This document shows, one piece after another, positions 8,660 through 32,401 of a DNA stretch of 37,835 nt. Under the pieces are notes generated by a model. That model ran no database searches and was not told the DNA's origin. It saw only the letters and a program-made list of their open reading frames with translations. Each line of letters starts with the position of its first letter. The stretch's first letter is position 1. The position numbers and the translations under genes were made by a program. Origin of the DNA: a virus; the IMG/VR virus record IMGVR_UViG_3300025529_000020, positions 1-37,835 of that record. One strand, 5' to 3'.

Positions 8660-9414
8660 GCATCACCTTCTCCTGCCTCGTCTTCCTTACGCCGCTGCTG
8701 TTCCAACTCACGGCGAAACGCGTTCAGGTTGGCATATTCAAGGTTGTCCCACATTGTCGCGTACTGCTGGGACGTTGGATGCAACCGGTAGCGACCCCTG
8801 CCAAAATACGGCTCAACAGTGCACTTGCAACCACGGTGCCAATGCCGCCCTGCCCCTGCAGCCCACGCGGACGAGTACACGGGACCGCGGGATGCCAACA
8901 TTGCGCAGAACGCACAACAGCGCGCACGCGCGATCCTTGCCCACCTCACTCGGCGTGGCTCCGCCTGCATGAGCGCGGCCAACGCGGTACGGCCACCCGC
9001 CATGGACGTGCGCGTAGCATCCAGACTCAGCGCTACAAGTGAACGCCGAGCAGCAGCCTCTTCAGCAAGCCCATCCTCCACGAGCGCGGTGACATACGCC
9101 GGACCCCAACGCGTCACCGACTCGCTCCATGCCCACGGATCCAGCTGATCCAGGATCACGGACGTGAACGGGTCTTGCACACCCTCGGCCGCACGAAACC
9201 GCTCATAGTACCTTTGCGCTGTTTCCGCGGACAACCGATACGCGGACGCTACCTCAGGAGCCTGCTCCGCCACCCATGAAGCGAACGCTGCAGGATCAAA
9301 CGCAACCTCGTCAGTCCACTCCGCCTCAAATGAACGGAGCAGGCTCTCCAGAATACCTAACTGAGCGGTGCGATGCGCTTCAGTGAGCACCGCACCAGCC
9401 TCAGTCACCGCCAC
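8656..9414 (-). CDS. Head morphogenesis / minor capsid protein (SPP1 gp7 / Mu F-like)
   Basis: Position immediately after portal; conserved His/Cys cluster (HWHRGCKC). Confidence 0.55.
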   Translation of the reverse strand: MAVTEAGAVLTEAHRTAQLGILESLLRSFEAEWTDEVAFDPAAFASWVAEQAPEVASAYRLSAETAQRYYERFRAAEGVQDPFTSVILDQLDPWAWSESVTRWGPAYVTALVEDGLAEEAAARRSLVALSLDATRTSMAGGRTALAALMQAEPRRVRWARIARARCCAFCAMLASRGPVYSSAWAAGAGRHWHRGCKCTVEPYFGRGRYRLHPTSQQYATMWDNLEYANLNAFRRELEQQRRKEDEAGEGDA

Positions 9415-10846
9415 CAGGATCCCCCTCCTCGACAGACAGAGAACCCCCGGAGGCCTCTACAGGAAGCGAAGTTTCGTCACCGCGGAGCAGCGTCGCGGCA
9501 ACCTCCGCAACATCCGTAGCCATATCCCGCTGTTTCAGCCGTTTCCACCTGCGAATCTGGAACGGCGTAACACCCGGGATCAGTTCCCACAACGCCTCTG
9601 CAGGGATGCCCAACATGGTGGCCAGTTTGCCGAGAGCATCCGCGGAAGCAGCGAGAGATCGTGCTTCTGTGTCGCGCCACACAACACGAGCACGGGTGTT
9701 CTCCGCATCCTCGAATTGTCCTGCAGCAAACGCCAAAAGACGGAATACACGCGACCATGCTTCTCCGAAAACCGCCTTTCTTTCCGAGACTTTTCTTGAC
9801 AGCCCCGCTTCCGCGGCTGCCAGCGCTTCCGCGCTAATGTTGACCAGCCCACCGAGAAGATAGTGTGGCGGCACTTGCGCAATAGTCGCCATGTGTTTAA
9901 TGGCAGATTCTTGCGACGCAAGATACCCCGTCAAATCCGTTTCCGTGAACTCACCGAATCTTGCGTCTTTAGACGCGGTAGTCCACAGTCGGTTCACCGC
10001 GGCCTCGAACGGCTCAATCGGCCGCCCGGTTTCCGGATCGCGGGGAATCTCCACACCGGTAGCCCATTTCTGCTTAAACGCCGCATACTGCTGAGCGATC
10101 AGCAAGCCCAACGTTGTATCGTTCAGGCGATCCTGCAGCGGGATAAGCGGCCACACCTCGCCGAGCTCCGCGATCCGCACATCCGGATCATCAGTCCACT
10201 GATTGCGGAAAACCACCACGGGACACACACCGAACGGGTGAGTCCAAGAATCCAACAGCCTGTATTCCTGGACGTTCCCGTAATCTCCGGACGGAACCCA
10301 GAATGACCACACACCCTCAGCGTCCACGAGGTCCCACACATCGCCCACAAGTCCGAGTTCGTTTTTCACTCGGGATCGCGAGCGACGGATCGCATAGTCC
10401 GGATATTCCGCATCCGGATCCTCCTGAACCACATACATGGCCAGCGGGGAATACACGCGCGCCACGGGACCTGGATCGCCAGGCCACACCATCACGTACC
10501 CGTGTCCATACGTCAACGCGGACCGGTACACATGCATTTGGCGTGACAGCATCCCGTTAGCCACCCAATATTCCCACACGTTGAGGTTATCGGGATGCTC
10601 ATCATCACGGTAACCCTCGACATAGAGGTTTTGCGCCACCGTGGTGACGATCAAAGGAAGCCAATTCCCGATTGCTTCTTGGCGGAATCCCGAGAATTCA
10701 CCCTCGTGGGAGCGCGGCATGTACGAGGGATCGTGGAGACCCCGCATATACCTACGCACGCGGTCCAGCGCTTGTTCCTCGTCCACACGAGATCGCAGCG
10801 CGTGCGCCAACCGCTCCTCCGCAGTCACTGGACCGCCTCCTTTCAC
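9401..10846 (-). CDS. Portal protein
   Basis: 481-aa ORF directly downstream of terminase large subunit; acidic C-terminus. Confidence 0.8.
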   Translation of the reverse strand: MKGGGPVTAEERLAHALRSRVDEEQALDRVRRYMRGLHDPSYMPRSHEGEFSGFRQEAIGNWLPLIVTTVAQNLYVEGYRDDEHPDNLNVWEYWVANGMLSRQMHVYRSALTYGHGYVMVWPGDPGPVARVYSPLAMYVVQEDPDAEYPDYAIRRSRSRVKNELGLVGDVWDLVDAEGVWSFWVPSGDYGNVQEYRLLDSWTHPFGVCPVVVFRNQWTDDPDVRIAELGEVWPLIPLQDRLNDTTLGLLIAQQYAAFKQKWATGVEIPRDPETGRPIEPFEAAVNRLWTTASKDARFGEFTETDLTGYLASQESAIKHMATIAQVPPHYLLGGLVNISAEALAAAEAGLSRKVSERKAVFGEAWSRVFRLLAFAAGQFEDAENTRARVVWRDTEARSLAASADALGKLATMLGIPAEALWELIPGVTPFQIRRWKRLKQRDMATDVAEVAATLLRGDETSLPVEASGGSLSVEEGDPGGGD

Positions 10847-12549
10847 TATCCAAACCCGAACAGAATTCCAGGCTGCTCATCATCGCCACGGTTCCGCTCA
10901 GACAAACGGCCACGCTCAATCGCCATACGACGTGCCTCACGAGCCAACACCATGGCTACCGCGGCATCGACTTTTCGTTCCGACTCCCTCGACTCTTTCC
11001 CAAGGCCTACCCCGAACGCGTTCGGACGTCGCCGAGCGTTCTTGATGTGGCGGATTAGTCGCACGTCGTTGGCAATAGTGAACGTACGTTCCTCGATCGC
11101 GGCCCTCGTCGACTCAGCAGCGCGCGTGAAATCGCGGAGTCGACCACGCATATCGAACGCGACAGAATGTCTCGCGGAAGCGCGAACAGCAAGCCGATCC
11201 CGGTACTGTTCTGCCCACGTGTCCACGTACGATTGCCAATACGCCACGTCGGCGAAAAAGGCGACCACGTCCCAACGTTCGAACGCGGCACGCACCGCCT
11301 CAGTGACCTCATCCGTGGGCACCGACCATCCCTGAGCGTCCGGAGAGTCCGGGCGTTCCCAAATACCCAGTGGCCACACGTGACCGGTCTCAATGTCACA
11401 CGCGATAAGCGCGGTAGCGTCCACCGTTTTAGAACCGTCAAACCCGAGTGCGATCATCGCACCGTCCGGGATTTCCCGGTCCTCAACGATGGCATCCACC
11501 TGGTCCGGACGGACCCATGCATCCGACGCGGCCACGATTTGGTTGAAGAAGAAGCGACGCGCCTCCTCGACAGGCTGCCGCGGATCGTAAACTTCGGCCA
11601 CAATCCGGTCAAAATCAACCCACGTCGAATCCCCGTACGCAACGCGGAGTGCGCGGCGCAAATCCTGCTCGTCCGCAATGTCCACGTCCGCTGGGGCTTC
11701 TCGGCAGTCATACAGATAGGGAACGCGATACCCCGGGTCTTCAGCGGCACGCTGCTGCATGGCTAGGTACATCTCGTATGTGCTCTGCGCCACCGAGTGG
11801 CGGCTAGGATCGTGAGCGTTGGTGATCTCCACCGCCCTGGCACCGCCACCAGCGATTTTGCCTAGGTTTCTCCGCACCGTACGGGCAACATGGTGACCAC
11901 CAGACGATTCAGTCCAGTGGTGCGTTTCCTCAAAAATCGCGAAAGTCGGACGACCACCTTCCAGCGACTGGCTGGAAGACGTCACGGGCTCAATCTTCCC
12001 AGGTCGGCCCGATGCGAACTGGACCATGGTTTTTCCCACGTCCAACCCGTAGTCAGCCACCGCGGGACTCGCCACCACCATGCCGCGGATCATCTGAAAC
12101 GTGTTCGCGGTCTGCGCATAGCTGGTTGCCGCAATCTGAACCCACGGAGAATGGACGCGTTTCCCAATGGGATGTAGCGCATCCCCCGAATGCGGACCCA
12201 CGCACGTGGCGCAGAATTCACCCTGACGAGCCCAGTGAGAAAACCTCACCGGACCCAAAAACTCCGCCAAACACAAAAGTGCGGCAAGCGGGGATTTTCC
12301 CCAGCCTTTCGCACGGCGAAGTGTTGCGCCGTTAAACACAAATCTGCCGCGGTCGTCTACGGCGTAGAGCCACAGCACAAACCTGACCTGCTCTGGCGTA
12401 AACCGCCACTGTGTCCCTGCACGCTCCCCATCAGGCTGCACAATGTAGCGCGTAGCCCACAGCAAAACCCCCCAGCCCAGCGTACAATCCGGAAGATCAT
12501 GAGGCAGGTTGCCGGTCTGTCCCCCAGACGAGCCCATCAACGCTCCCAA
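10846..12549 (-). CDS. Terminase large subunit
   Basis: 567-aa ORF with Walker A-like GWGKSPLAA motif, between terminase small subunit and portal. Confidence 0.8.
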   Translation of the reverse strand: MGALMGSSGGQTGNLPHDLPDCTLGWGVLLWATRYIVQPDGERAGTQWRFTPEQVRFVLWLYAVDDRGRFVFNGATLRRAKGWGKSPLAALLCLAEFLGPVRFSHWARQGEFCATCVGPHSGDALHPIGKRVHSPWVQIAATSYAQTANTFQMIRGMVVASPAVADYGLDVGKTMVQFASGRPGKIEPVTSSSQSLEGGRPTFAIFEETHHWTESSGGHHVARTVRRNLGKIAGGGARAVEITNAHDPSRHSVAQSTYEMYLAMQQRAAEDPGYRVPYLYDCREAPADVDIADEQDLRRALRVAYGDSTWVDFDRIVAEVYDPRQPVEEARRFFFNQIVAASDAWVRPDQVDAIVEDREIPDGAMIALGFDGSKTVDATALIACDIETGHVWPLGIWERPDSPDAQGWSVPTDEVTEAVRAAFERWDVVAFFADVAYWQSYVDTWAEQYRDRLAVRASARHSVAFDMRGRLRDFTRAAESTRAAIEERTFTIANDVRLIRHIKNARRRPNAFGVGLGKESRESERKVDAAVAMVLAREARRMAIERGRLSERNRGDDEQPGILFGFG

Positions 12550-12620: not shown

Positions 12621-13199
12621 TCAGCCCTCCTGAGCCAGCATTTCCCGGTACTCGGCCAACACCGCAACATTGTCCGGAGATGCTTCCGGACCAGAGTTCG
12701 CGGCAGCGGCAGCAGCGCTCGCACCACCATCCGACACACTCCCAACGCGACCCCGAAGGCGCTCCATGTGGGTACCGCCCAATGCACGCTCCGCGCGGAA
12801 CACGATCTCAAAAATCCGAGCTTTCCGCATCGCGTCCTTTTCCCGATGCATGGCATCCACCAGCGGCAGCAGGCTCTTCAGCACCTCCCAGTCAGAAGGT
12901 TCGAAGTGCGCCACCTGAGCGGAGTGGCACCACGCGGTCCACCACTCCCGGGTCGCGGACAGCCAGCGCTTGGGATTGGGCAGTTCGGGAATTTCTCTCG
13001 CGGAAGTCCCCAGCGGAGCGCCACGAACAGAGTCCGCGGTAGGCTGGGAACTGTCCGGAGCACCGCACGAGGGGCACGCACGGCCGTCCGCATCCCGCAG
13101 AGAACCACAACTCACACACTGTCTACGCCGGACCCCAGTGAAGGGATCCGGGTTGCGTCGTCTACGATTAGGGTTAGGAGGTGGTCCCATACCAGCCAT
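12621..13199 (-). CDS. Putative terminase small subunit (with CxxC...CxxC zinc ribbon)
   Basis: Position between HNH and terminase large subunit; ATG with GGGAGGGA RBS; Arg-rich N-terminus. Confidence 0.5.
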   Translation of the reverse strand: MAGMGPPPNPNRRRRNPDPFTGVRRRQCVSCGSLRDADGRACPSCGAPDSSQPTADSVRGAPLGTSAREIPELPNPKRWLSATREWWTAWCHSAQVAHFEPSDWEVLKSLLPLVDAMHREKDAMRKARIFEIVFRAERALGGTHMERLRGRVGSVSDGGASAAAAAANSGPEASPDNVAVLAEYREMLAQEG

Positions 13200-13382
13200 G
13201 CGATATCCCTCCCTGCCACACCTGACCGAACCCGTGTTCGCGGCCCCGCGCGCACGCGCACGCGCGCGTAGAGGGCGCGTTTGCGCAGGTCAGAGCGCTA
13301 AAGCGTTTTACCAGACCCGTACACGGAGAAAAAAGTGCTATCCGCACGCGCTCTCCGCTCCTCCCGGGTCCGGGGGTACCCC

Positions 13383-13700
13383 CTAGGTCACTTTTTTGTA
13401 ACACCAAAATGGGTGTTGCTCTGCCTCACGAACGCGGCGACGACGTGTCCTCGCTGCTGCTGCAGCACCTTCACGTGAGCTCTTCTTCGCGTGGTGGTAG
13501 CGACACAGTGCCTGCAGGTTGTTCAGCGAGTGGTCATCGCCTGCAATGATGTGGTCTACTTCTGTCGCTACCTCAGTACACCGCGTACCAGTATCGACCC
13601 TGATCCACTCGCAGCGATACCCAGCGCGCTCAAGAACGGTAACGCGAATGCGTCTCCAGTTTCGCGGCAGACGGTCGCCGCGGTTGCTTGTACTCCACAT
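13383..13700 (-). CDS. HNH endonuclease (terminase-associated)
   Basis: CxxC ... EVDHII ... NLQALCRYHH motifs; ATG at 13700 with GGAGGGG RBS (ORF-track start at 13712 is an upstream GTG). Confidence 0.8.
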   Translation of the reverse strand: MWSTSNRGDRLPRNWRRIRVTVLERAGYRCEWIRVDTGTRCTEVATEVDHIIAGDDHSLNNLQALCRYHHAKKSSREGAAAAARTRRRRVREAEQHPFWCYKKVT

Positions 13701-13723
13701 ACACCCCTCCACATGAATGGAGG

Positions 13724-13800
13724 GCTGGGGGATCTTATATGGGGGATCCCTTTCCTACGCGGGGATCCCTATAGGGGGATCCATATCGGGGATGGCGTTT
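13724..13800. repeat. Four to five direct GGGGATC(C) repeats interleaved with CCTACGCGG, in the leader of the HNH/terminase operon
   Basis: GGGGATC at about 13727, 13742, 13761, 13777 and 13788; CCTACGCGG at 13754 and 13802. Confidence 0.6.
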
Positions 13801-13836
13801 CCCTACGCGGCCCTCCTTAGACGGTCACCGCAAAAC

Positions 13837-13879
13837 GCGGAGTACAGCTCCCGGTCTGCCCCAGGGCACTGTACTCCGC
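13837..13879 (-). promoter_or_regulatory. Leader hairpin (11-bp stem GCGGAGTACAG/CTGTACTCCGC) followed by GUUUUG on the minus strand
   Basis: Perfect 11-bp inverted repeat with 21-nt loop between promoter-like motif and HNH gene. Confidence 0.5.
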
Positions 13880-13884
13880 TACAT

Positions 13885-13910
13885 AGTGTTACAGGTCCCG
13901 GTGCGCGCTC
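13885..13910 (-). promoter_or_regulatory. Conserved motif site 1 (GTTACAGGTCC ... GCGCGC), candidate phage promoter/operator
   Basis: One of five copies of the same motif, all in intergenic DNA upstream of minus-strand operons. Confidence 0.5.
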
Positions 13911-13917
13911 TCCTAGA

Positions 13918-14018
13918 GGGTGACGAGTGACGAGTTTTTTCGTAGTTTTAGATTGTTCTATATGTATGTATATAGAGCAATATAAAACTAATGTTTAAAT
14001 CGTCATTCGTCATCACTC
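13918..14018. repeat. AT-rich island A, bounded by inverted repeats GTGACGAGTGACGAG / TCGTCATTCGTCATCAC
   Basis: About 65 bp of AT-rich DNA with nested palindrome CTATAT...ATATAG in an otherwise GC-rich genome, flanked by imperfect 15-bp inverted arms. Confidence 0.6.
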
Positions 14019-14030
14019 ACCCCATCTCCT

Positions 14031-15635
14031 CTACTCCGCGTAGACCGCTCCCTCACTCTCCGCGCTCTCCCCAGCGTCTGCCCATTCGATCCGCAGTCGG
14101 TGCGGACCAACGGTGCGTGGCTGTCCGAGTCTTACCGGGTAGATGATGACCCTGTTGATCGCGAGGTGGAGTAGGTCCCGCACCAGCGCTCGCTGTCCGC
14201 GTTCCACTGCGTCCCGCATCGCATCTGCCAGCGTTTCCGGATCGTCCACGAACCCCAAGTCCAACGTTGCTTGTGACCGCGCGATAGCGGCCTGCAGCTC
14301 TCGGAGTTCCGCGGACAGTGACCGCATCTCCGAGACGAACAGCTCCGGAGCGTCCTCGTAGGCTCCTGCCCTGAACGCGTCGTGGAGTCTTTGACGTACG
14401 GTCTCGATTTCTTGGATCCGTGCGCGCTTCGCCGCGATTTCTTCGGACTCGCTTGGTTGTTGTCGAGCTGTCCACCGCTCAGCGATGATCAGTGCGAGCA
14501 TGTCCGTGGGTTCAAGCGCGGTTATTCGGTTGAGCCACTCGGCGATCACGAGCTGCTCTGCGCGTTCTCTGGTGATCCGCGCTGGTGCGGGACATGTGGC
14601 TATCGCGGACGTGACGGATGCGCACACCTGTTGCACACCGGATGCTGGTGCGGAGCGTCCGCATGTGCCACACACCGCGATCCCGGTCAGGATGTGTTTT
14701 CTGTGTCTCGCAGTGGGGCGTACGATGCGGCGACGTGTAGAAAACGTGGTGATGTTCTTTGTGAGCCTTTCGAGGAGCTGCTCTCGCTCGTCCGGCGTGA
14801 GCACACCTTCCCCGATGCTGACGAGTCGACCTTCCTCGTCACGGTAAGGTTCTACCAGGTGGGATTTGCCGTTGTTTGCGCGGCCCGCTACCTGCAGCCC
14901 TGCGATTGCGGGGTTGGTGATCAGGCTGATGTAGGTCGTGACGTACCAGATGCCTCCACTGGGGCCGCGGATGCCGAGTTCGTTCTGTTCAGCAACCACG
15001 CTACGCGCTGAGCGTCCGCCGAGAATCTGTTCCGCTCCCCAACGCAGGACCTGGGCACGCGTTCGACCGTCTTCGGTCGGTGTGGTGTAGTCGGGACGTA
15101 CCTTCCGTGTTTTCGGATCTAAGAGGAGTCCCCACGGCACGCTTCCCCCGATCCATTCTCCGTCTCGGCGTTGCCGGGCCTTGCTGATGTGGATTCTGTG
15201 GGATAGGTCAACGCTGTACTGTCGAGCACGCTCCGCCTCATCGATGATGTGGCGACGGTCATGCTCGTCCAGCGTGTCGTAGCGGTCCCAGTAGAAGATG
15301 ACCCGGTGCTTGCCCAGCATGGGGAGTACGTCTTCTGCGCCTCGACGAGTAAGGCGGTCCAGCCTGAAAACCCACAGTGCCTCGACTTCTCCGCGTTGTA
15401 GTGCGGCAAGTGCCTTTCGGAACACCGGCCGTTCCCGGTCCGCGTATGCGGAGCCTAATTCTCGCCACACGTGCCGTACTTGGCTGCCTACCTGTGCTGC
15501 CCAGTGCCGGCCGATTTCCTCCTGTTCCCGGATGGAGACTTCGCGTAGGCGGTCGCCTTCGGAGAGAACCCGGGATTTCCTCACGTACAGGTCCACCGTT
15601 TTTGGTGGTGGGAGTAGTTGGGAGTGGGGGAACAC
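14031..15635 (-). CDS. Large serine recombinase (phage integrase)
   Basis: N-terminal resolvase-type catalytic motif VDLYVRKSRVLSEG...RLDRLTRR, central recombinase domain, Cys-rich zinc ribbon (CGTCGR...C...C) and coiled-coil C-terminus; GTG at 15635 with GGAGG RBS. Confidence 0.8.
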   Translation of the reverse strand: MFPHSQLLPPPKTVDLYVRKSRVLSEGDRLREVSIREQEEIGRHWAAQVGSQVRHVWRELGSAYADRERPVFRKALAALQRGEVEALWVFRLDRLTRRGAEDVLPMLGKHRVIFYWDRYDTLDEHDRRHIIDEAERARQYSVDLSHRIHISKARQRRDGEWIGGSVPWGLLLDPKTRKVRPDYTTPTEDGRTRAQVLRWGAEQILGGRSARSVVAEQNELGIRGPSGGIWYVTTYISLITNPAIAGLQVAGRANNGKSHLVEPYRDEEGRLVSIGEGVLTPDEREQLLERLTKNITTFSTRRRIVRPTARHRKHILTGIAVCGTCGRSAPASGVQQVCASVTSAIATCPAPARITRERAEQLVIAEWLNRITALEPTDMLALIIAERWTARQQPSESEEIAAKRARIQEIETVRQRLHDAFRAGAYEDAPELFVSEMRSLSAELRELQAAIARSQATLDLGFVDDPETLADAMRDAVERGQRALVRDLLHLAINRVIIYPVRLGQPRTVGPHRLRIEWADAGESAESEGAVYAE

Positions 15636-15668
15636 GAACGCCTCCAAGTGTGTGCTGATGTGCGTAGG

Positions 15669-15674
15669 AGTATA
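15669..15674 (-). promoter_or_regulatory. -10-like hexamer TATACT upstream of integrase start
   Basis: TATACT about 27 nt upstream of the GGAGG RBS, downstream of a terminator. Confidence 0.35.
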
Positions 15675-15705
15675 GCGACCTTGTGGAGTGTTCGTGTTTG
15701 GGCAT

Positions 15706-15744
15706 GAAAAAAGACCCGTTCGCCGTTGGTTGGTGAACGGGTCT
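15706..15744 (-). terminator. Intrinsic terminator (GACCCGTTC...GAACGGGTC stem followed by TTTTTT)
   Basis: 9-bp GC-rich stem and U6 tract on the minus strand; lies inside the over-extended ORF-track integrase ORF. Confidence 0.7.
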
Positions 15745-15762
15745 TGGTCCGCTGATTGGTGC

Positions 15763-15853
15763 GGGACCATCCCCACATGCGTGGGGAGCAGGTTTTGAGG
15801 TCCGTCTAGAGTAAATCCAGGCCGGGACCATCCCCACATGCGTGGGGAGCAGG
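15763..15853. repeat. Two 30-bp direct repeats GGGACCATCCCCACATGCGTGGGGAGCAGG (15763-15792 and 15824-15853), each with an internal hairpin
   Basis: Exact 30-bp duplication with 61-bp period; each copy contains palindrome CCCCAC-ATGC-GTGGGG. Confidence 0.8.
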
Positions 15854-16890: not shown

Positions 16891-17078
16891 TGGGCATGTG
16901 CGGTGTATGCGCTGTTCAGCGTCGGTGTGCGCATGTGTATGTAGTATGAGCATGCTGTGAACACATGCGTGTGCCGGTGGGGCCGTGTTTGTCGTGGAGG
17001 AAATGCGTCGCGGACGTGGTAGAGTGGATGCGGTCATTGTCTCCTGAGTGTGTGCGTGGATGAGTGGACTATGACCAG

Positions 17079-29635: not shown

Positions 29636-29672
29636 TCCTAGTTACAGGTCCGCAGCGTGGGGAGCGCGCGTA
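29636..29672 (-). promoter_or_regulatory. Conserved motif site 3 (GTTACAGGTCC ... GGGGAGCGCGCG) with adjacent A5T5 tract
   Basis: First copy of a tandemly duplicated ~117-bp promoter-like unit upstream of the exonuclease gene. Confidence 0.5.
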
Positions 29673-29752
29673 CCGTGGCAGAAAAATTTTTGGTCGACGT
29701 GCTCCGCACCTGGTGAGGGTTCGGATCGCCACGTCGCCCCTTCCGGATCTGT

Positions 29753-29790
29753 CTCTAGTTACAGGTCCGCGGCGGTGGGAGCGCGCGGGT
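29753..29790 (-). promoter_or_regulatory. Conserved motif site 4 (tandem duplicate of site 3)
   Basis: Second copy: GTTACAGGTCC at 29758-29768, GCGCGC at 29781-29786, A4T4 tract at 29798-29808. Confidence 0.5.
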
Positions 29791-29883
29791 CGCGGCAGAA
29801 AATTTTCTGACCGACGTAGCTGCAGCGGGATGGGCACGGAGAGTGAGGGCATGCCCTACGCGGAGTAGAGGAGATGGGGGAGT

Positions 29884-31561: not shown

Positions 31562-32401
31562 TTACGCCGGAACTGTCGTGGCCAGTTTCCGTCGCGCGTC
31601 GCGTAGCACGTTCCTTCCCCAGCGGTCCGTGCGTCCGTAGCGGGTCCCGATTTCCGCTCCGGTGAGCGTGGTTCCGTTCCGGAGCTGTTCCGCGACCCAT
31701 TCGACAGCGGAACGGCGTTCCGCGCTGTGCGGGGGTACCACGGACACCGGAACGGTCGTAGGGGCTCCCTCCTCCACTACCGGAACGCGGACATTCCGTT
31801 CCTCGTCCCGCTGTTGTTCCTCGTTCCGCTCTTCGTTCCGCGCTGTTCCGCTCTTCGTTCCGCTGCTGTTCCGTTCCTCGTTCCGTTCCTCGTCCCCCGG
31901 TTGTTCCGTGTTCCGTTCCTCGTCCCGTTCCCCATTCCGCTGTTGTTCCTCGTCCCGTTCCTCGTTCCGCTCTTCGTTCCGTTCCTCGTTCCGCTGCTGT
32001 TCCGCCCTGTTCCGTCTACCTGCAGCAAGGGCCACCGACGCAACGACCACTAGTCCATCTACAGACAGTGGCAGCAGGATGGCCACAAGCTCCGACTCCC
32101 CGTACTGGAGCAGGAGCCCGCGCATGTGACCGTAGGAGACCACGGCCGCGGCCAGCGCTACGAGGAAAGCTCCCACCCACTCAACTGCGGACAGCAGTCC
32201 ACGCGGACGCTGTCCACGAACCATCATCTCTGCGACCAACAGCAGCGCTACCGGTGCCCATGCCGCAAACAGCATGGCACCGATGTCTGTTCCGTCCGCG
32301 TTCCGTTCCGCGGCGTGTGCCACGTTCGCGGCGATGCTGGCTCCTGCGCCGAGTAGGAACGCTGTCCAGGGGATGGCGTTTGATCTCGGTTTTCCGCTCA
32401 C
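31562..32401 (-). CDS. Membrane protein with central EERN tandem-repeat low-complexity region (start uncertain)
   Basis: Three or more hydrophobic helices, then (EERN)n repeats, then Arg-rich C-terminus; first possible start after the upstream gene stop is GTG at 32401. Confidence 0.45.
   Translation of the reverse strand: MSGKPRSNAIPWTAFLLGAGASIAANVAHAAERNADGTDIGAMLFAAWAPVALLLVAEMMVRGQRPRGLLSAVEWVGAFLVALAAAVVSYGHMRGLLLQYGESELVAILLPLSVDGLVVVASVALAAGRRNRAEQQRNEERNEERNEERDEEQQRNGERDEERNTEQPGDEERNEERNSSGTKSGTARNEERNEEQQRDEERNVRVPVVEEGAPTTVPVSVVPPHSAERRSAVEWVAEQLRNGTTLTGAEIGTRYGRTDRWGRNVLRDARRKLATTVPA
31790..32015. repeat. Imperfect tandem array of GTTCC(G/T)-containing units (about 12-bp period) encoding EERN repeats
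   Basis: Plus strand reads TTCCGTTCCTCGTTCCGCT... repeatedly; translates as EERNEERNEERDEE on the minus strand. Confidence 0.8.

What the first reader, a model, noticed from the sequence alone, without database searches (positions are those of the whole stretch)
13200..13382. HNH-terS intergenic region with a 22-nt alternating CG/CA tract: candidate cos/packaging site
An HNH endonuclease gene immediately upstream of the terminase small and large subunits is the arrangement seen in HK97-like cos phages, where cos lies between HNH and terS. This 183-bp gap contains an alternating purine-pyrimidine tract CGCGCGCACGCGCACGCGCGCG (13246-13268, Z-DNA-prone), a TTTTTT run and GC-rich palindromes. The 127-bp terminal repeat shows the contig is circularly assembled, so the physical ends are not defined by the window.
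Basis: inference. Interest (0 to 1): 0.45.

Follow-up and report, generated by a model that had tools for sequence, protein, structure and literature searches.

The report
Phage cos site with CG-rich tract
The gap between the HNH nuclease and small terminase genes of this actinobacterial phage very probably holds its DNA-packaging cut site (cos), an ordinary feature, and the odd alternating CG/CA tract lies about 70 bases from the predicted cut and recurs in the phage's closest relatives.

Summary
There is a 183-nt gap between HNH (13383-13712) and terS (12621-13199), all on the minus strand, and it holds a 22-nt CG/CA tract (13247-13268; alternation runs to 13270).

The cos interpretation is supported by comparison with relatives. 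More than 30 phages and prophages with a related TerL share the junction CGN7AT|AGC-N15-17-GYRCGGGTY, preceded by a G5-N-C5 palindrome. In sequenced isolates (Attoomi, Mysterium, JuneStar) the record ends fall exactly at the bar. The last 11 nt of the JuneStar record are its published 11-base 3' overhang.

The window matches this pattern once, at 13383-13314(-). That predicts an overhang 5'-CGCGTGCGGAT (13350-13340) and a left end starting at AGCAC (13339). Two independent assemblies of near-identical phages start exactly at that base.

The tract is not the cut site. It lies at +70..+93, between the cut and terS. CG-dense, mostly alternating tracts sit at the same place in most of the closest lineages, and are almost absent from 629 kb of related DNA. 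I read it as a clade-specific accessory cos element, possibly a cosB-like or DNA-shape element; its function is not shown.

Overall this is a new member of a known kind, of low to moderate interest.

The parts
13383..13712 (-). HNH endonuclease gene, the first gene of the packaging module
   Evidence: Pfam HNH E 1.7e-4; PHROG 333 HNH endonuclease E 3e-35.
13372..13383 (.). GGGGGTACCCCC palindrome at -44..-33 from the predicted cut. This is the conserved right-end element (G4-5, N2-4, C4-5).
   Evidence: Present 20-35 nt upstream of the overhang in almost all aligned junctions. The combined pattern with the overhang and AGC matches the window only here, against 0.01 expected.
13340..13350 (-). 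Predicted 11-nt 3' cohesive overhang, 5'-CGCGTGCGGAT-3' (cosN equivalent).
   Evidence: It aligns with the last 11 nt of the records of Attoomi (CGAAACGTGAT), Mysterium (CGAAACGGCAT) and JuneStar (CGAACCGGCAT). The JuneStar sequence is published as an 11-base 3' overhang (PMC11600132). Cluster AZ phages are reported with CGAAGGGGCAT (PMC9119123).
13311..13339 (-). Predicted left genome end: AGC (+1..+3), a T6 run (+6..+11; 13334-13329) and the conserved GTACGGGTCTGG box (+18..+29; 13322-13311). The box is the candidate TerS or terminase recognition site.
   Evidence: ATAGC-N13-17-YRCGRGTY matches the window only at 13341-13314(-), against 0.11 expected. It is the top nhmmer hit of a 19-junction profile, though weak (E 0.64). 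Contigs L080/L007/L161 and L164 start exactly at AGCAC. The box occupies the same +15..+29 position as the mapped HK97 TerS site (PMC11331095).
13275..13293 (-). CTGACCTG plus a GCGC-AAAC-GCGC mini-hairpin box (+47..+65).
   Evidence: Similar boxes (YTGACCTG followed by a short GC hairpin with different stem sequences) lie at +60..+100 in Attoomi, L083, L135, L179, L183 and L184, and near the right end of mycobacteriophage BigNuz. The function is unknown.
13247..13270 (.). The 24-nt alternating CG/CA(TG) tract (+70..+93). It is a clade-specific accessory element, not the cut site.
   Evidence: It is the longest alternating run and the CGCG/GCGC density maximum of the genome. Equivalent tracts lie at +54..+127 in L083, L084/L085 and L195, and degenerate CG-rich versions in L196, L200, L194, L202 and L203.
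13226..13237 (-). A second ACACGGGTTCGG box (+103..+114), an imperfect direct repeat of the +18 box.
   Evidence: Seen. It is invariant among the close relatives but not found in other lineages, so it may be chance.
13207..13213 (-). GGGAGGG ribosome-binding site of terS.
   Evidence: Read from the sequence.
12621..13199 (-). terS (192 aa) with an inserted CxxC...CxxC zinc ribbon at residues 28-46.
   Evidence: Pfam Terminase_7 E 4e-19. The insertion is shared with P0001-P0012 and absent from P0013-P0018 and all other relatives.
10846..12549 (-). terL (567 aa).
   Evidence: PHROG 9 E 9e-76. It is 47-50% identical to the TerL of 3'-cos Arthrobacter and Curtobacterium phages. Pairwise BLASTP against HK97 gp2 gives E 2e-7.
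9401..10846 (-). Portal protein.
   Evidence: Pfam SPP1_portal E 2e-29. It is followed by protease, scaffold, major head protein, connectors and major tail protein.

Best explanation
The HNH-terS gap is the cohesive-end (cos) site of a temperate, high-GC actinobacterial siphophage that packages DNA the way HK97 does.

Proposed mechanism (inferred from the HK97 work). Terminase (TerS plus TerL), helped by the adjacent HNH nuclease, makes staggered nicks that leave an 11-nt 3' overhang, 5'-CGCGTGCGGAT-3' (window 13350-13340, minus strand). The mature left end then starts at AGCAC (13339) and runs into terS, and the right end stops just after the HNH gene.

Anatomy (read from the alignments). The conserved G5-N2-C5 palindrome sits at -44..-33. 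The GTACGGGTCTGG box sits at +18..+29, the position where HK97 TerS binds its DNA. I take these two as the core recognition elements.

The tract. The alternating CG/CA tract (+70..+93) is not the cut site. It is an accessory element confined to this phage's closest relatives and anchored to the cut. My best guess for its role is a cosB-like or DNA-shape element, either an array of ACGCGC-type repeats or a deformable, Z-prone segment, that helps terminase assemble.

What is shown and what is inferred. Shown: motif conservation, the unique match in the window, contig starts at the predicted base, and the tract's recurrence. Inferred: the cleavage chemistry, the overhang length, the protein-DNA contacts, and any function for the tract.
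For: 1. Module. HNH, terS, terL, portal, protease, scaffold and major head protein lie on one strand.

2. Record ends of relatives. Records of TerL or HNH relatives end and start inside the same HNH-terS gap. Attoomi reads ...CGAAACGTGAT|AGCGGCTCGGAATCTGTACGGGTTCC and has the same integrase-HNH-end arrangement. Mysterium reads ...CGAAACGGCAT|AGCGCC.... JuneStar reads ...CGAACCGGCAT|AGCGCC....

3. Overhang length. Published 11-base 3' overhangs for cluster AZ relatives equal the last 11 nt of the record.

4. Intact junctions. The same junction is intact in more than 25 metagenomic contigs and in Arthrobacter, Streptomyces and Microbacterium prophages.

5. Unique match. The junction pattern occurs once in the window, on the coding strand inside the gap. 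Chance expectation is 0.11 for one pattern and 0.01 for the other, over the whole window on both strands.

6. Contig starts at the predicted base. Two sequence-distinct assemblies start exactly at AGCAC, equivalent to 13339: IMG 3300027664 contig Ga0207873_1008545, and JAFIDK010000023.1.

7. Contig starts in other lineages. L085, L196/L197 (two sequencing runs), L200/L201 (two runs), L092, L100, L111, L115, L120 and L125 also start exactly at AGC.

8. The motif marks the end even where HNH is elsewhere. BD-cluster Streptomyces phages start with AGCGGCC...CCACGGTTCC, and L5 has TGC...GTACGGGTTTCC after the first 9 nt of its record, which I recall as its overhang.

9. HK97 precedent. HK97 has a 10-nt 3' overhang, a TerS site at +15..+29, and cleavage stimulated by its HNH protein (PMC11331095). 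The window's TerL is distantly homologous to HK97 gp2.

10. Tract. Of seven alternating runs of 18 nt or more in 629 kb of related loci, six lie between cos and terS in this clade. The CGCG/GCGC density maximum of the locus falls there in 6 of 8 clade members.

11. Tract position. Its distance from the cut stays at roughly +55..+125 while its distance to the terS start varies from 15 to about 110 nt. CA versus TG on the coding strand is not conserved, which points to a role at the duplex-DNA level.
Against: No reads or virion DNA were available, so the ends are predicted, not mapped. The window itself was assembled straight through the site.

The nhmmer profile hit is the best in the window but not significant on its own (E 0.64).

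One contig approaching from the right (L024) stops 20 nt before the junction rather than at the overhang. L008 and L011 start 15-17 nt inside the left end, so contig ends are only approximate markers.

The TerS shows no detectable similarity to HK97 TerS (hhalign probability 0.02; Foldseek E above 4). The +18..+29 analogy is therefore positional only.

For the tract, strict alternation is broken in several clade members (L194, L196, L200, L202) and the tract is absent from L198. That weakens a pure Z-DNA reading. Folding energies are no better than shuffles. No experiment links such tracts to packaging, and a search for Z-DNA, terminase and cos site together found no paper.
Confidence: 0.85

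Rival explanations
1. cos is in the gap, but the cut lies about 40 nt further towards terS, at GGTAAAACGCTTT|AGCGCTCTGACC (between window 13300 and 13299). This is 'site B', my first alignment to Mysterium and Attoomi.
For: There is local similarity: AAACG...T|AGCGC(C/T)CTGAC...CTGCGC matches the Mysterium and Attoomi junctions.
Against: Site B lacks the downstream GYRCGGGTY box at +18 and lacks CG at -11/-10. Contigs L007, L008, L011 and L164 read straight through it, and two of them stop exactly at site A. The junction regular expressions match only site A. The site-B similarity is explained by the separate CTGACCTG box, which in Attoomi lies at about +62.
Confidence: 0.04
2. cos lies elsewhere, for example upstream of HNH in the integrase-HNH gap (13713-14030) as in BD-cluster Streptomyces phages and L5, or the phage packages by headful (pac) with no fixed ends. 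On this reading the HNH-terS gap is only an intercistronic spacer.
For: In BD-cluster phages and in L5 the HNH gene is 0.7-2.3 kb inside the left end. The window was assembled as a circle through the gap. The integrase-HNH gap has conspicuous repeats and a long inverted repeat.
Against: The junction motif that marks the ends even in BD-cluster phages is absent from the integrase-HNH gap and unique to the HNH-terS gap. All characterised TerL relatives with published ends have 3' cohesive ends. Contig starts pile up at the predicted base in several lineages.
Confidence: 0.06
3. The alternating tract has nothing to do with packaging. It is either an RNA-level or regulatory element of the late operon, such as a 5'-UTR hairpin or a regulator-binding site just upstream of the terS ribosome-binding site, or a neutral CG microsatellite.
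For: In L084, L194, L195 and L196 the CG-rich tract abuts the terS Shine-Dalgarno sequence. The tract can form a 9-bp hairpin (-15 kcal/mol). A shared core ACGCGCGC occurs in 5 of 6 lineages, which could be a protein-binding site.
Against: In the window and in L083 the tract stays near the cut and does not follow the ribosome-binding site (47 and about 110 nt from the start codon). CA versus TG strandedness flips between lineages, which would change an RNA hairpin. Folding energy is no better than shuffles (z about 0). No promoter-like or terminator-like site and no Rfam match lie in the gap. Neutral origin is unlikely given the recurrence in lineages whose flanks do not align, against one comparable run elsewhere in 629 kb.
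Confidence: 0.35

Closest known systems
cos ends of actinobacteriophages with 11-base 3' overhangs (Arthrobacter cluster AZ, e.g. JuneStar, Pumpkins, Eraser; Curtobacterium phage Mysterium; Streptomyces phage Attoomi)
   Same: TerL is 46-53% identical to these phages. HNH is at the right end and terS at the left end. The junction CGN7AT|AGC-N15-17-GYRCGGGTY and the upstream G-run/C-run palindrome are shared. Attoomi also has a serine integrase just upstream of HNH.
   Different: There is no nucleotide similarity beyond the short motifs. The spacing from AGC to CGGGT is 2 nt longer. The window's TerS has a zinc-ribbon insertion. The CG/CA tract between the cut and terS is absent from all of these phages.
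Escherichia phage HK97 cos and its HNH (gp74)-assisted terminase
   Same: HNH lies next to terS, terL and portal. The ends are 3' cohesive. The window's conserved box occupies the +15..+29 position where HK97 TerS binds. An A/T run lies close to the cut. TerL is distantly homologous (pairwise BLASTP E 2e-7).
   Different: The HK97 overhang is 10 nt rather than the predicted 11. The TerS proteins are not detectably related. In HK97 the HNH stop is 319 nt from the end and terS starts 49 nt in, against about 32 nt to the overhang (43 nt to the junction) and 140 nt here. HK97 has no CG-rich tract.
Mycobacteriophage L5 (cluster A) cos
   Same: After the first 9 nt of the record, the left end reads TGC-N14-GTACGGGTTTCC, with CGGGT at +21, the same spacing as in the window. 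The TerL family is shared.
   Different: The 9 leading nucleotides are its overhang as I recall it from the literature; I did not check this here. The HNH gene is gene 4, about 2.3 kb inside the left end. L5 starts with TGC rather than AGC.
Lambda cosB, I1 and I2 (TerS-binding repeats and bend sites between cosN and Nu1)
   Same: Accessory elements lie tens of bases inside the left end, between the nick site and the terS gene. DNA-shape elements can be essential there (PMC4856287).
   Different: Lambda has 12-nt 5' overhangs, no HNH, and unrelated proteins and sequences. No binding data exist for the tract studied here.

Membership tests
Actinobacteriophage 3'-cos type with an 11-base overhang (AZ / Attoomi / Mysterium type) | Junction motif CGN7AT|AGC-N15-17-GYRCGGGTY in the orientation leading into terS | tested here: met
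   There is a single match at 13341-13314(-), against 0.11 expected. The alignment to 19 junctions is.
Actinobacteriophage 3'-cos type with an 11-base overhang (AZ / Attoomi / Mysterium type) | G-run/C-run palindrome 20-35 nt upstream of the overhang | tested here: met
   GGGGGTACCCCC lies at 13372-13383. The combined pattern is unique in the window, against 0.01 expected.
Actinobacteriophage 3'-cos type with an 11-base overhang (AZ / Attoomi / Mysterium type) | TerL homologous to that of phages with mapped 3' cohesive ends | tested here: met
   47-50% identity over 94-98% of the protein to cluster AZ and Curtobacterium phages. Their overhangs are published.
Actinobacteriophage 3'-cos type with an 11-base overhang (AZ / Attoomi / Mysterium type) | Physical genome ends at the junction (fixed termini, 3' overhang) | tested here: inconclusive
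   No reads or virion DNA were available. Indirect support: two independent assemblies start exactly at AGCAC. A right-side contig stops 20 nt short of the junction.
HK97-like HNH-assisted packaging module | HNH gene directly adjacent to terS, terL, portal, protease and major head protein | tested here: met
HK97-like HNH-assisted packaging module | TerL of the HK97 gp2 family | tested here: met
   Pairwise BLASTP E 2e-7, 24% identity over 191 aa, colinear from the N-terminus. The Pfam TerL_ATPase match is below its cut-off (16.6 against 23.7 bits), so the relationship is distant.
HK97-like HNH-assisted packaging module | TerS of the HK97 gp1 family | tested here: not met
   hhalign probability 0.02. 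There is no PDB sequence hit. Foldseek hits to 8pop and 6z6e have E 4-10 and TM 0.2-0.3, on a model with pLDDT 67.
HK97-like HNH-assisted packaging module | HNH stimulates TerL cos cleavage, and TerS binds at +15..+29 | not testable with these tools
   This needs in vitro cleavage and gel-shift (EMSA) assays. Only the positional analogy is available.
Z-DNA-prone sequence | Uninterrupted purine/pyrimidine alternation of at least about 12 bp made of CG and CA/TG steps | tested here: met
   24 nt at 13247-13270. However, the alternation is interrupted in the clade members L194, L196, L200 and L202.
Z-DNA-prone sequence | Actual B-to-Z transition under physiological supercoiling | not testable with these tools
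   This needs 2D gels, chemical probing or a Z-alpha binding assay.
Headful (pac) packaging | No fixed termini, and a TerL that groups with headful terminases | tested here: not met
   The TerL relatives with mapped ends are 3'-cos phages, and contig starts are fixed.
Known RNA families (Rfam 15) | A covariance-model match in the gap | tested here: not met
   There is no match in 13200-13382 at E up to 1.

The most novel reading that the evidence does not exclude
The CG-dense, largely alternating tract 55-125 nt inside the left end is a previously undescribed, clade-specific cos component. It could be an array of ACGCGC-type small-terminase binding repeats. It could instead be a DNA-shape element (a deformable or Z-prone segment, a B-Z junction) whose conformation, rather than its exact sequence, licenses terminase assembly or cos cleavage in this group of Nocardiopsis/Streptomyces-type phages.
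Probability: 0.3. Interest if true: 0.5.

Novelty: new member of a known kind. Interest (0 to 1): 0.3.

Why it matters
In practice, this gives a base-level prediction of the genome ends for an uncultured phage that was assembled as a circle. It allows correct linearisation and annotation. It also yields a simple junction signature (G5-N-C5 ... CGN7AT|AGC-N15-17-GYRCGGGTY) that locates cos in many actinobacterial phages and prophages without read data.

Biologically, the conserved box at +18..+29 and the clade-specific CG/CA tract are concrete, cheap targets for TerS-binding and packaging assays. The tract would be of wider interest only if it proved to be a shape-dependent cos element.

Tried and rejected
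- Site B. My first alignment put the cut at 13300/13299. I rejected it once many junctions were available.
- Direct DNA similarity of the gap to known phages. Only insignificant short hits came back.
- nhmmer profile of 19 junctions. The top hit is the right place, but E is only 0.64.
- Rfam. Nothing lies in the gap.
- Promoter and terminator scan. Nothing lies in the gap.
- Single-strand folding of the left end, the tract and the right end. All z-scores are about 0.
- The metagenome-wide pattern scan returned only one contig that I already held. The IMG/VR pattern scan mostly returned unrelated coding hits.
- phiC31 ends. They do not show the AT|AGC junction in the same register, so I did not use them.
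- TerS against solved structures, by sequence, by profile and by predicted fold. The result was inconclusive.
- Co-occurrence of the tract with the TerS zinc ribbon. Rejected, because L083 and L084 have the tract but no ribbon, and L198 has the ribbon but no tract.
- The literature search found no description of the junction motif, and no paper that holds Z-DNA, terminase and cos site together.
- A 77-codon ORF crossing the gap (13174-13407, minus strand). I dismissed it because it overlaps HNH and terS and is cut by the predicted end.

Full report
**Observation.**
All relevant genes are on the minus strand. In order they are a serine integrase (14031-15839), an HNH endonuclease (13383-13712), a 183-nt gap (13200-13382), terS (12621-13199, Pfam Terminase_7), terL (10846-12549) and an SPP1-type portal (9401-10846). 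Protease, scaffold, major head protein, connector proteins and major tail protein follow. Purine/pyrimidine alternation continues to 13270, giving 24 nt. This is the longest alternating run in the genome. Markov simulations reach 24 nt or more anywhere in 37.7 kb in 0-1.7% of runs. The 60-nt window around the tract has the highest CGCG/GCGC density of the genome (16, against a mean of 1.29 and sd of 1.63). The T6 run is on the coding strand (13334-13329). The palindrome GGGGGTACCCCC is at 13372-13383. The 127-nt terminal repeat is exact, so the contig is a circular assembly of 37,708 nt.

**Locating cos by comparison.**
The gap has no useful nucleotide similarity to known phages, but the proteins do have relatives. 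TerL is 47-50% identical to the TerL of Arthrobacter, Curtobacterium and Microbacterium phages, and about 2,000 actinobacteriophage records match it. In Curtobacterium phage Mysterium, Streptomyces phage Attoomi and Arthrobacter phage JuneStar, HNH is the last gene and terS is the first or second gene. The record ends therefore fall in the homologous gap. Attoomi also has a serine integrase just upstream of HNH, as the window does.

The end sequences are alike in all three:
- Attoomi: ...CGAAACGTGAT|AGCGGCTCGGAATCTGTACGGGTTCC
- Mysterium: ...CGAAACGGCAT|AGCGCCTGACACTGCGCGCGGGTTCC
- JuneStar...CGAACCGGCAT|AGCGCCTCCCGCCGAGCGCGAGTCTGG

JuneStar's last 11 nt are its published 11-base 3' overhang (PMC11600132). 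Cluster AZ phages such as Eraser are reported with CGAAGGGGCAT (PMC9119123).

I then scanned IMG/VR and one genome per species with a TerL alignment and with TerS homologues. The same junction appeared, intact, in more than 25 metagenomic contigs and in prophages of Arthrobacter, Pseudarthrobacter, Microbacterium, Streptomyces and Nocardiopsis. Its form is a G4-5/N2-4/C4-5 palindrome, then 20-35 nt, then CGN7AT|AGC, then 15-17 nt, then GYRCGGGTY. Many linear contigs and isolate records begin exactly at AGC: L085, L092, L100, L111 (Liebe), L115, L120, L125, L196/L197 and L200/L201.

The motif marks the end even where HNH is not terminal. BD-cluster Streptomyces phages start AGCGGCCAAGATCGCGCCACGGTTCC although their HNH is 0.7 kb inside. 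The L5 record reads GGTCGGTTA|TGCGGCCGAGCCATCCTGTACGGGTTTCC.

**The window.**
On the minus strand the gap reads TAG GGGGTACCCCC GGACCCGGGAGGAGCGGAGAG CGCGTGCGGAT|AGCACTTTTTTCTCCGTGTACGGGTCTGG. The pattern ATAGC-N13-17-YRCGRGTY matches the whole window once, at 13341-13314(-), against 0.11 expected. The pattern GGGG..CCCC-N15-45-CGN7ATAGC matches once, at 13383-13337(-), against 0.01 expected. A profile of 19 junctions puts its best, though weak, hit at the same place.

Two independent assemblies of near-identical but sequence-distinct phages start exactly at AGCAC, which is window 13339. One is the IMG contig Ga0207873_1008545. The other is a 4.7-kb contig in an Algoriphagus aestuarii whole-genome shotgun project. 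That is what blunt-ended library preparation of a 3'-overhang end should give.

I therefore predict the overhang 5'-CGCGTGCGGAT-3' (13350-13340), a left end beginning at 13339, and terS starting at +141. An earlier candidate, CTTT|AGCGC at 13300/13299, is rejected. It lacks the downstream box, contigs read through it, and its resemblance is explained by a separate CTGACCTG-hairpin box that also lies inside the left end of Attoomi and several Streptomyces prophages.

**How it probably works.**
The module resembles HK97. In that phage an HNH protein next to the terminase genes stimulates cos cleavage, the ends carry a 10-nt 3' overhang, and TerS binds a 15-bp site at +15..+29 whose flanking A-tract shape is essential (PMC11331095). 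The window's TerL is a distant homologue of HK97 gp2 (BLASTP E 2e-7). Its TerS is not detectably related to HK97 gp1 by sequence, profile or predicted fold.

The most widely conserved DNA box here, GTACGGGTCTGG, sits at +18..+29. I propose it as the terminase recognition site. It may be read by the invariant basic N-terminal arm of this TerS family (M-x-G-x-GP-x-P...R). These steps are inferences.

**The tract.**
The tract lies at +70..+93, so it is not the cleavage site. It is nevertheless not random. In 629 kb of related loci there are only seven alternating runs of 18 nt or more. Six of them lie between the cut and terS, in the window's own lineage, in L083, and in L084/L085. These are the three lineages with TerL at least 55% identical, and their flanking sequences are otherwise unalignable.

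Further TerS relatives carry CG-dense versions at the same place, and the density there is the locus-wide maximum in 6 of 8 clade members:
- L195, which is 51-62% identical in TerS, carries two 15-nt runs.
- L196, L200, L194, L202 and L203 carry interrupted ACGCGC-rich versions.
- L198 carries none.

More distant relatives lack the tract.

The tract keeps its distance from the cut (about +55..+125) while its distance to the terS start varies from 15 to about 110 nt. CA versus TG on the coding strand flips between lineages. Together these favour a duplex-DNA, cos-linked role over an RNA role. Strict alternation is not always kept, so a pure Z-DNA explanation is weak.

My working explanation is a clade-specific accessory cos element, either a cosB-like repeat array or a DNA-shape element, by analogy with lambda cosB/I2 (PMC4856287) and the HK97 A-tract. 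I give it about 30-35% confidence. A regulatory or RNA-level role upstream of terS remains a real alternative, because in four lineages the tract abuts the Shine-Dalgarno sequence. Rfam, the promoter/terminator scan and the folding statistics gave nothing in the gap.

**Verdict.**
The finding is a correct and now much sharper cos prediction for an uncultured temperate actinobacterial siphophage. It is a new member of a known kind. The only mildly novel aspect is the recurrent CG/CA tract just inside the left end. Physical end mapping and TerS-binding or packaging assays would settle both points.

Noticed in passing
window 13921-14012 (integrase-HNH gap): This is an AT-rich region in a 62% GC genome. 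It has a 43-nt-arm imperfect inverted repeat (13921-13963 / 13970-14012), (A)ATGACG direct repeats with inverted CGTCA copies, a 16-nt TATATACATACATATA run, and the only sigma-70-like hit of the area (14006-13979, minus strand). A similar ATGACG-repeat AT-rich block lies between the integrase and HNH genes in a Nocardiopsis alba locus (L194) that sits on a 1.56-Mb chromosomal contig. If that is an integrated prophage, it argues against attP and for a promoter/operator or an origin.
   Followed up: partly
window 13728-13790: A cluster of five GGGGATC(C) motifs, partly palindromic GGGATCCC, lies directly upstream of the HNH start. GGGATCC is over-represented genome-wide (20 matches against 6.3 expected). 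These may be regulator-binding sites at the head of the late operon.
   Followed up: partly
window 13837-13879: A 16-bp-arm hairpin (GCGGAGTACAGCTCCC / GGGCACTGTACTCCGC) is followed on the minus strand by GCGTTTTGCGG. It may be a terminator between the integrase and the HNH/late operon.
   Followed up: no
window 13061-13118 (TerS residues 28-46): TerS carries an inserted CxxC-(12)-CxxC zinc ribbon. It is shared with 12 homologue clusters that are at least 51% identical, including Nocardiopsis alba prophages, and is absent from all other relatives. The weak fold hits are to RanBP2-type zinc fingers. This is unusual for a small terminase.
   Followed up: partly
L164 (JAFIDK010000023.1, Algoriphagus aestuarii KCTC 42199 WGS): A 4.7-kb contig whose TerL is 99% identical to this phage's sits in a Bacteroidota isolate assembly. 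This looks like contamination or carry-over of an actinobacterial phage. The same phage also recurs in several unrelated IMG metagenomes.
   Followed up: no
window 13276-13300 versus L076 1501-1525 (Mycobacterium phage LilSpotty 27434-27458): A 25/25 identical match (TAGCGCTCTGACCTGCGCAAACGCG; E 5e-3) falls in the intergenic region just upstream of LilSpotty's tyrosine integrase, next to a tRNA/tmRNA-like 3' end. Related CTGACCTG boxes lie near the cos ends of cluster P, I and A mycobacteriophages. I have no explanation.
   Followed up: partly
L033, L035, L036, L043, L045, L052 (IMG/VR contigs with a distant HNH relative): Several contigs from different metagenomes end at the same nucleotides (...TTTTTTTATTGAAGGGTTCTAC) just after an HNH gene, while L036 reads on past that point. 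These are probably the physical cos ends of another phage group.
   Followed up: no
window 29638-29700 and 29755-29817; window 31796-31997: There is a 63-nt direct repeat (83% identical, 117 nt apart) containing CAGAAAAATTTTT, and a run of 12-nt-period CCGTTCCTCGTY repeats. Neither was examined.
   Followed up: no
window 16925-16943: The second-longest alternating purine/pyrimidine run (19 nt, GTGTGCGCATGTGTATGTA), with a 14-nt run nearby at 16961-16974, lies in an apparently intergenic region.
   Followed up: no
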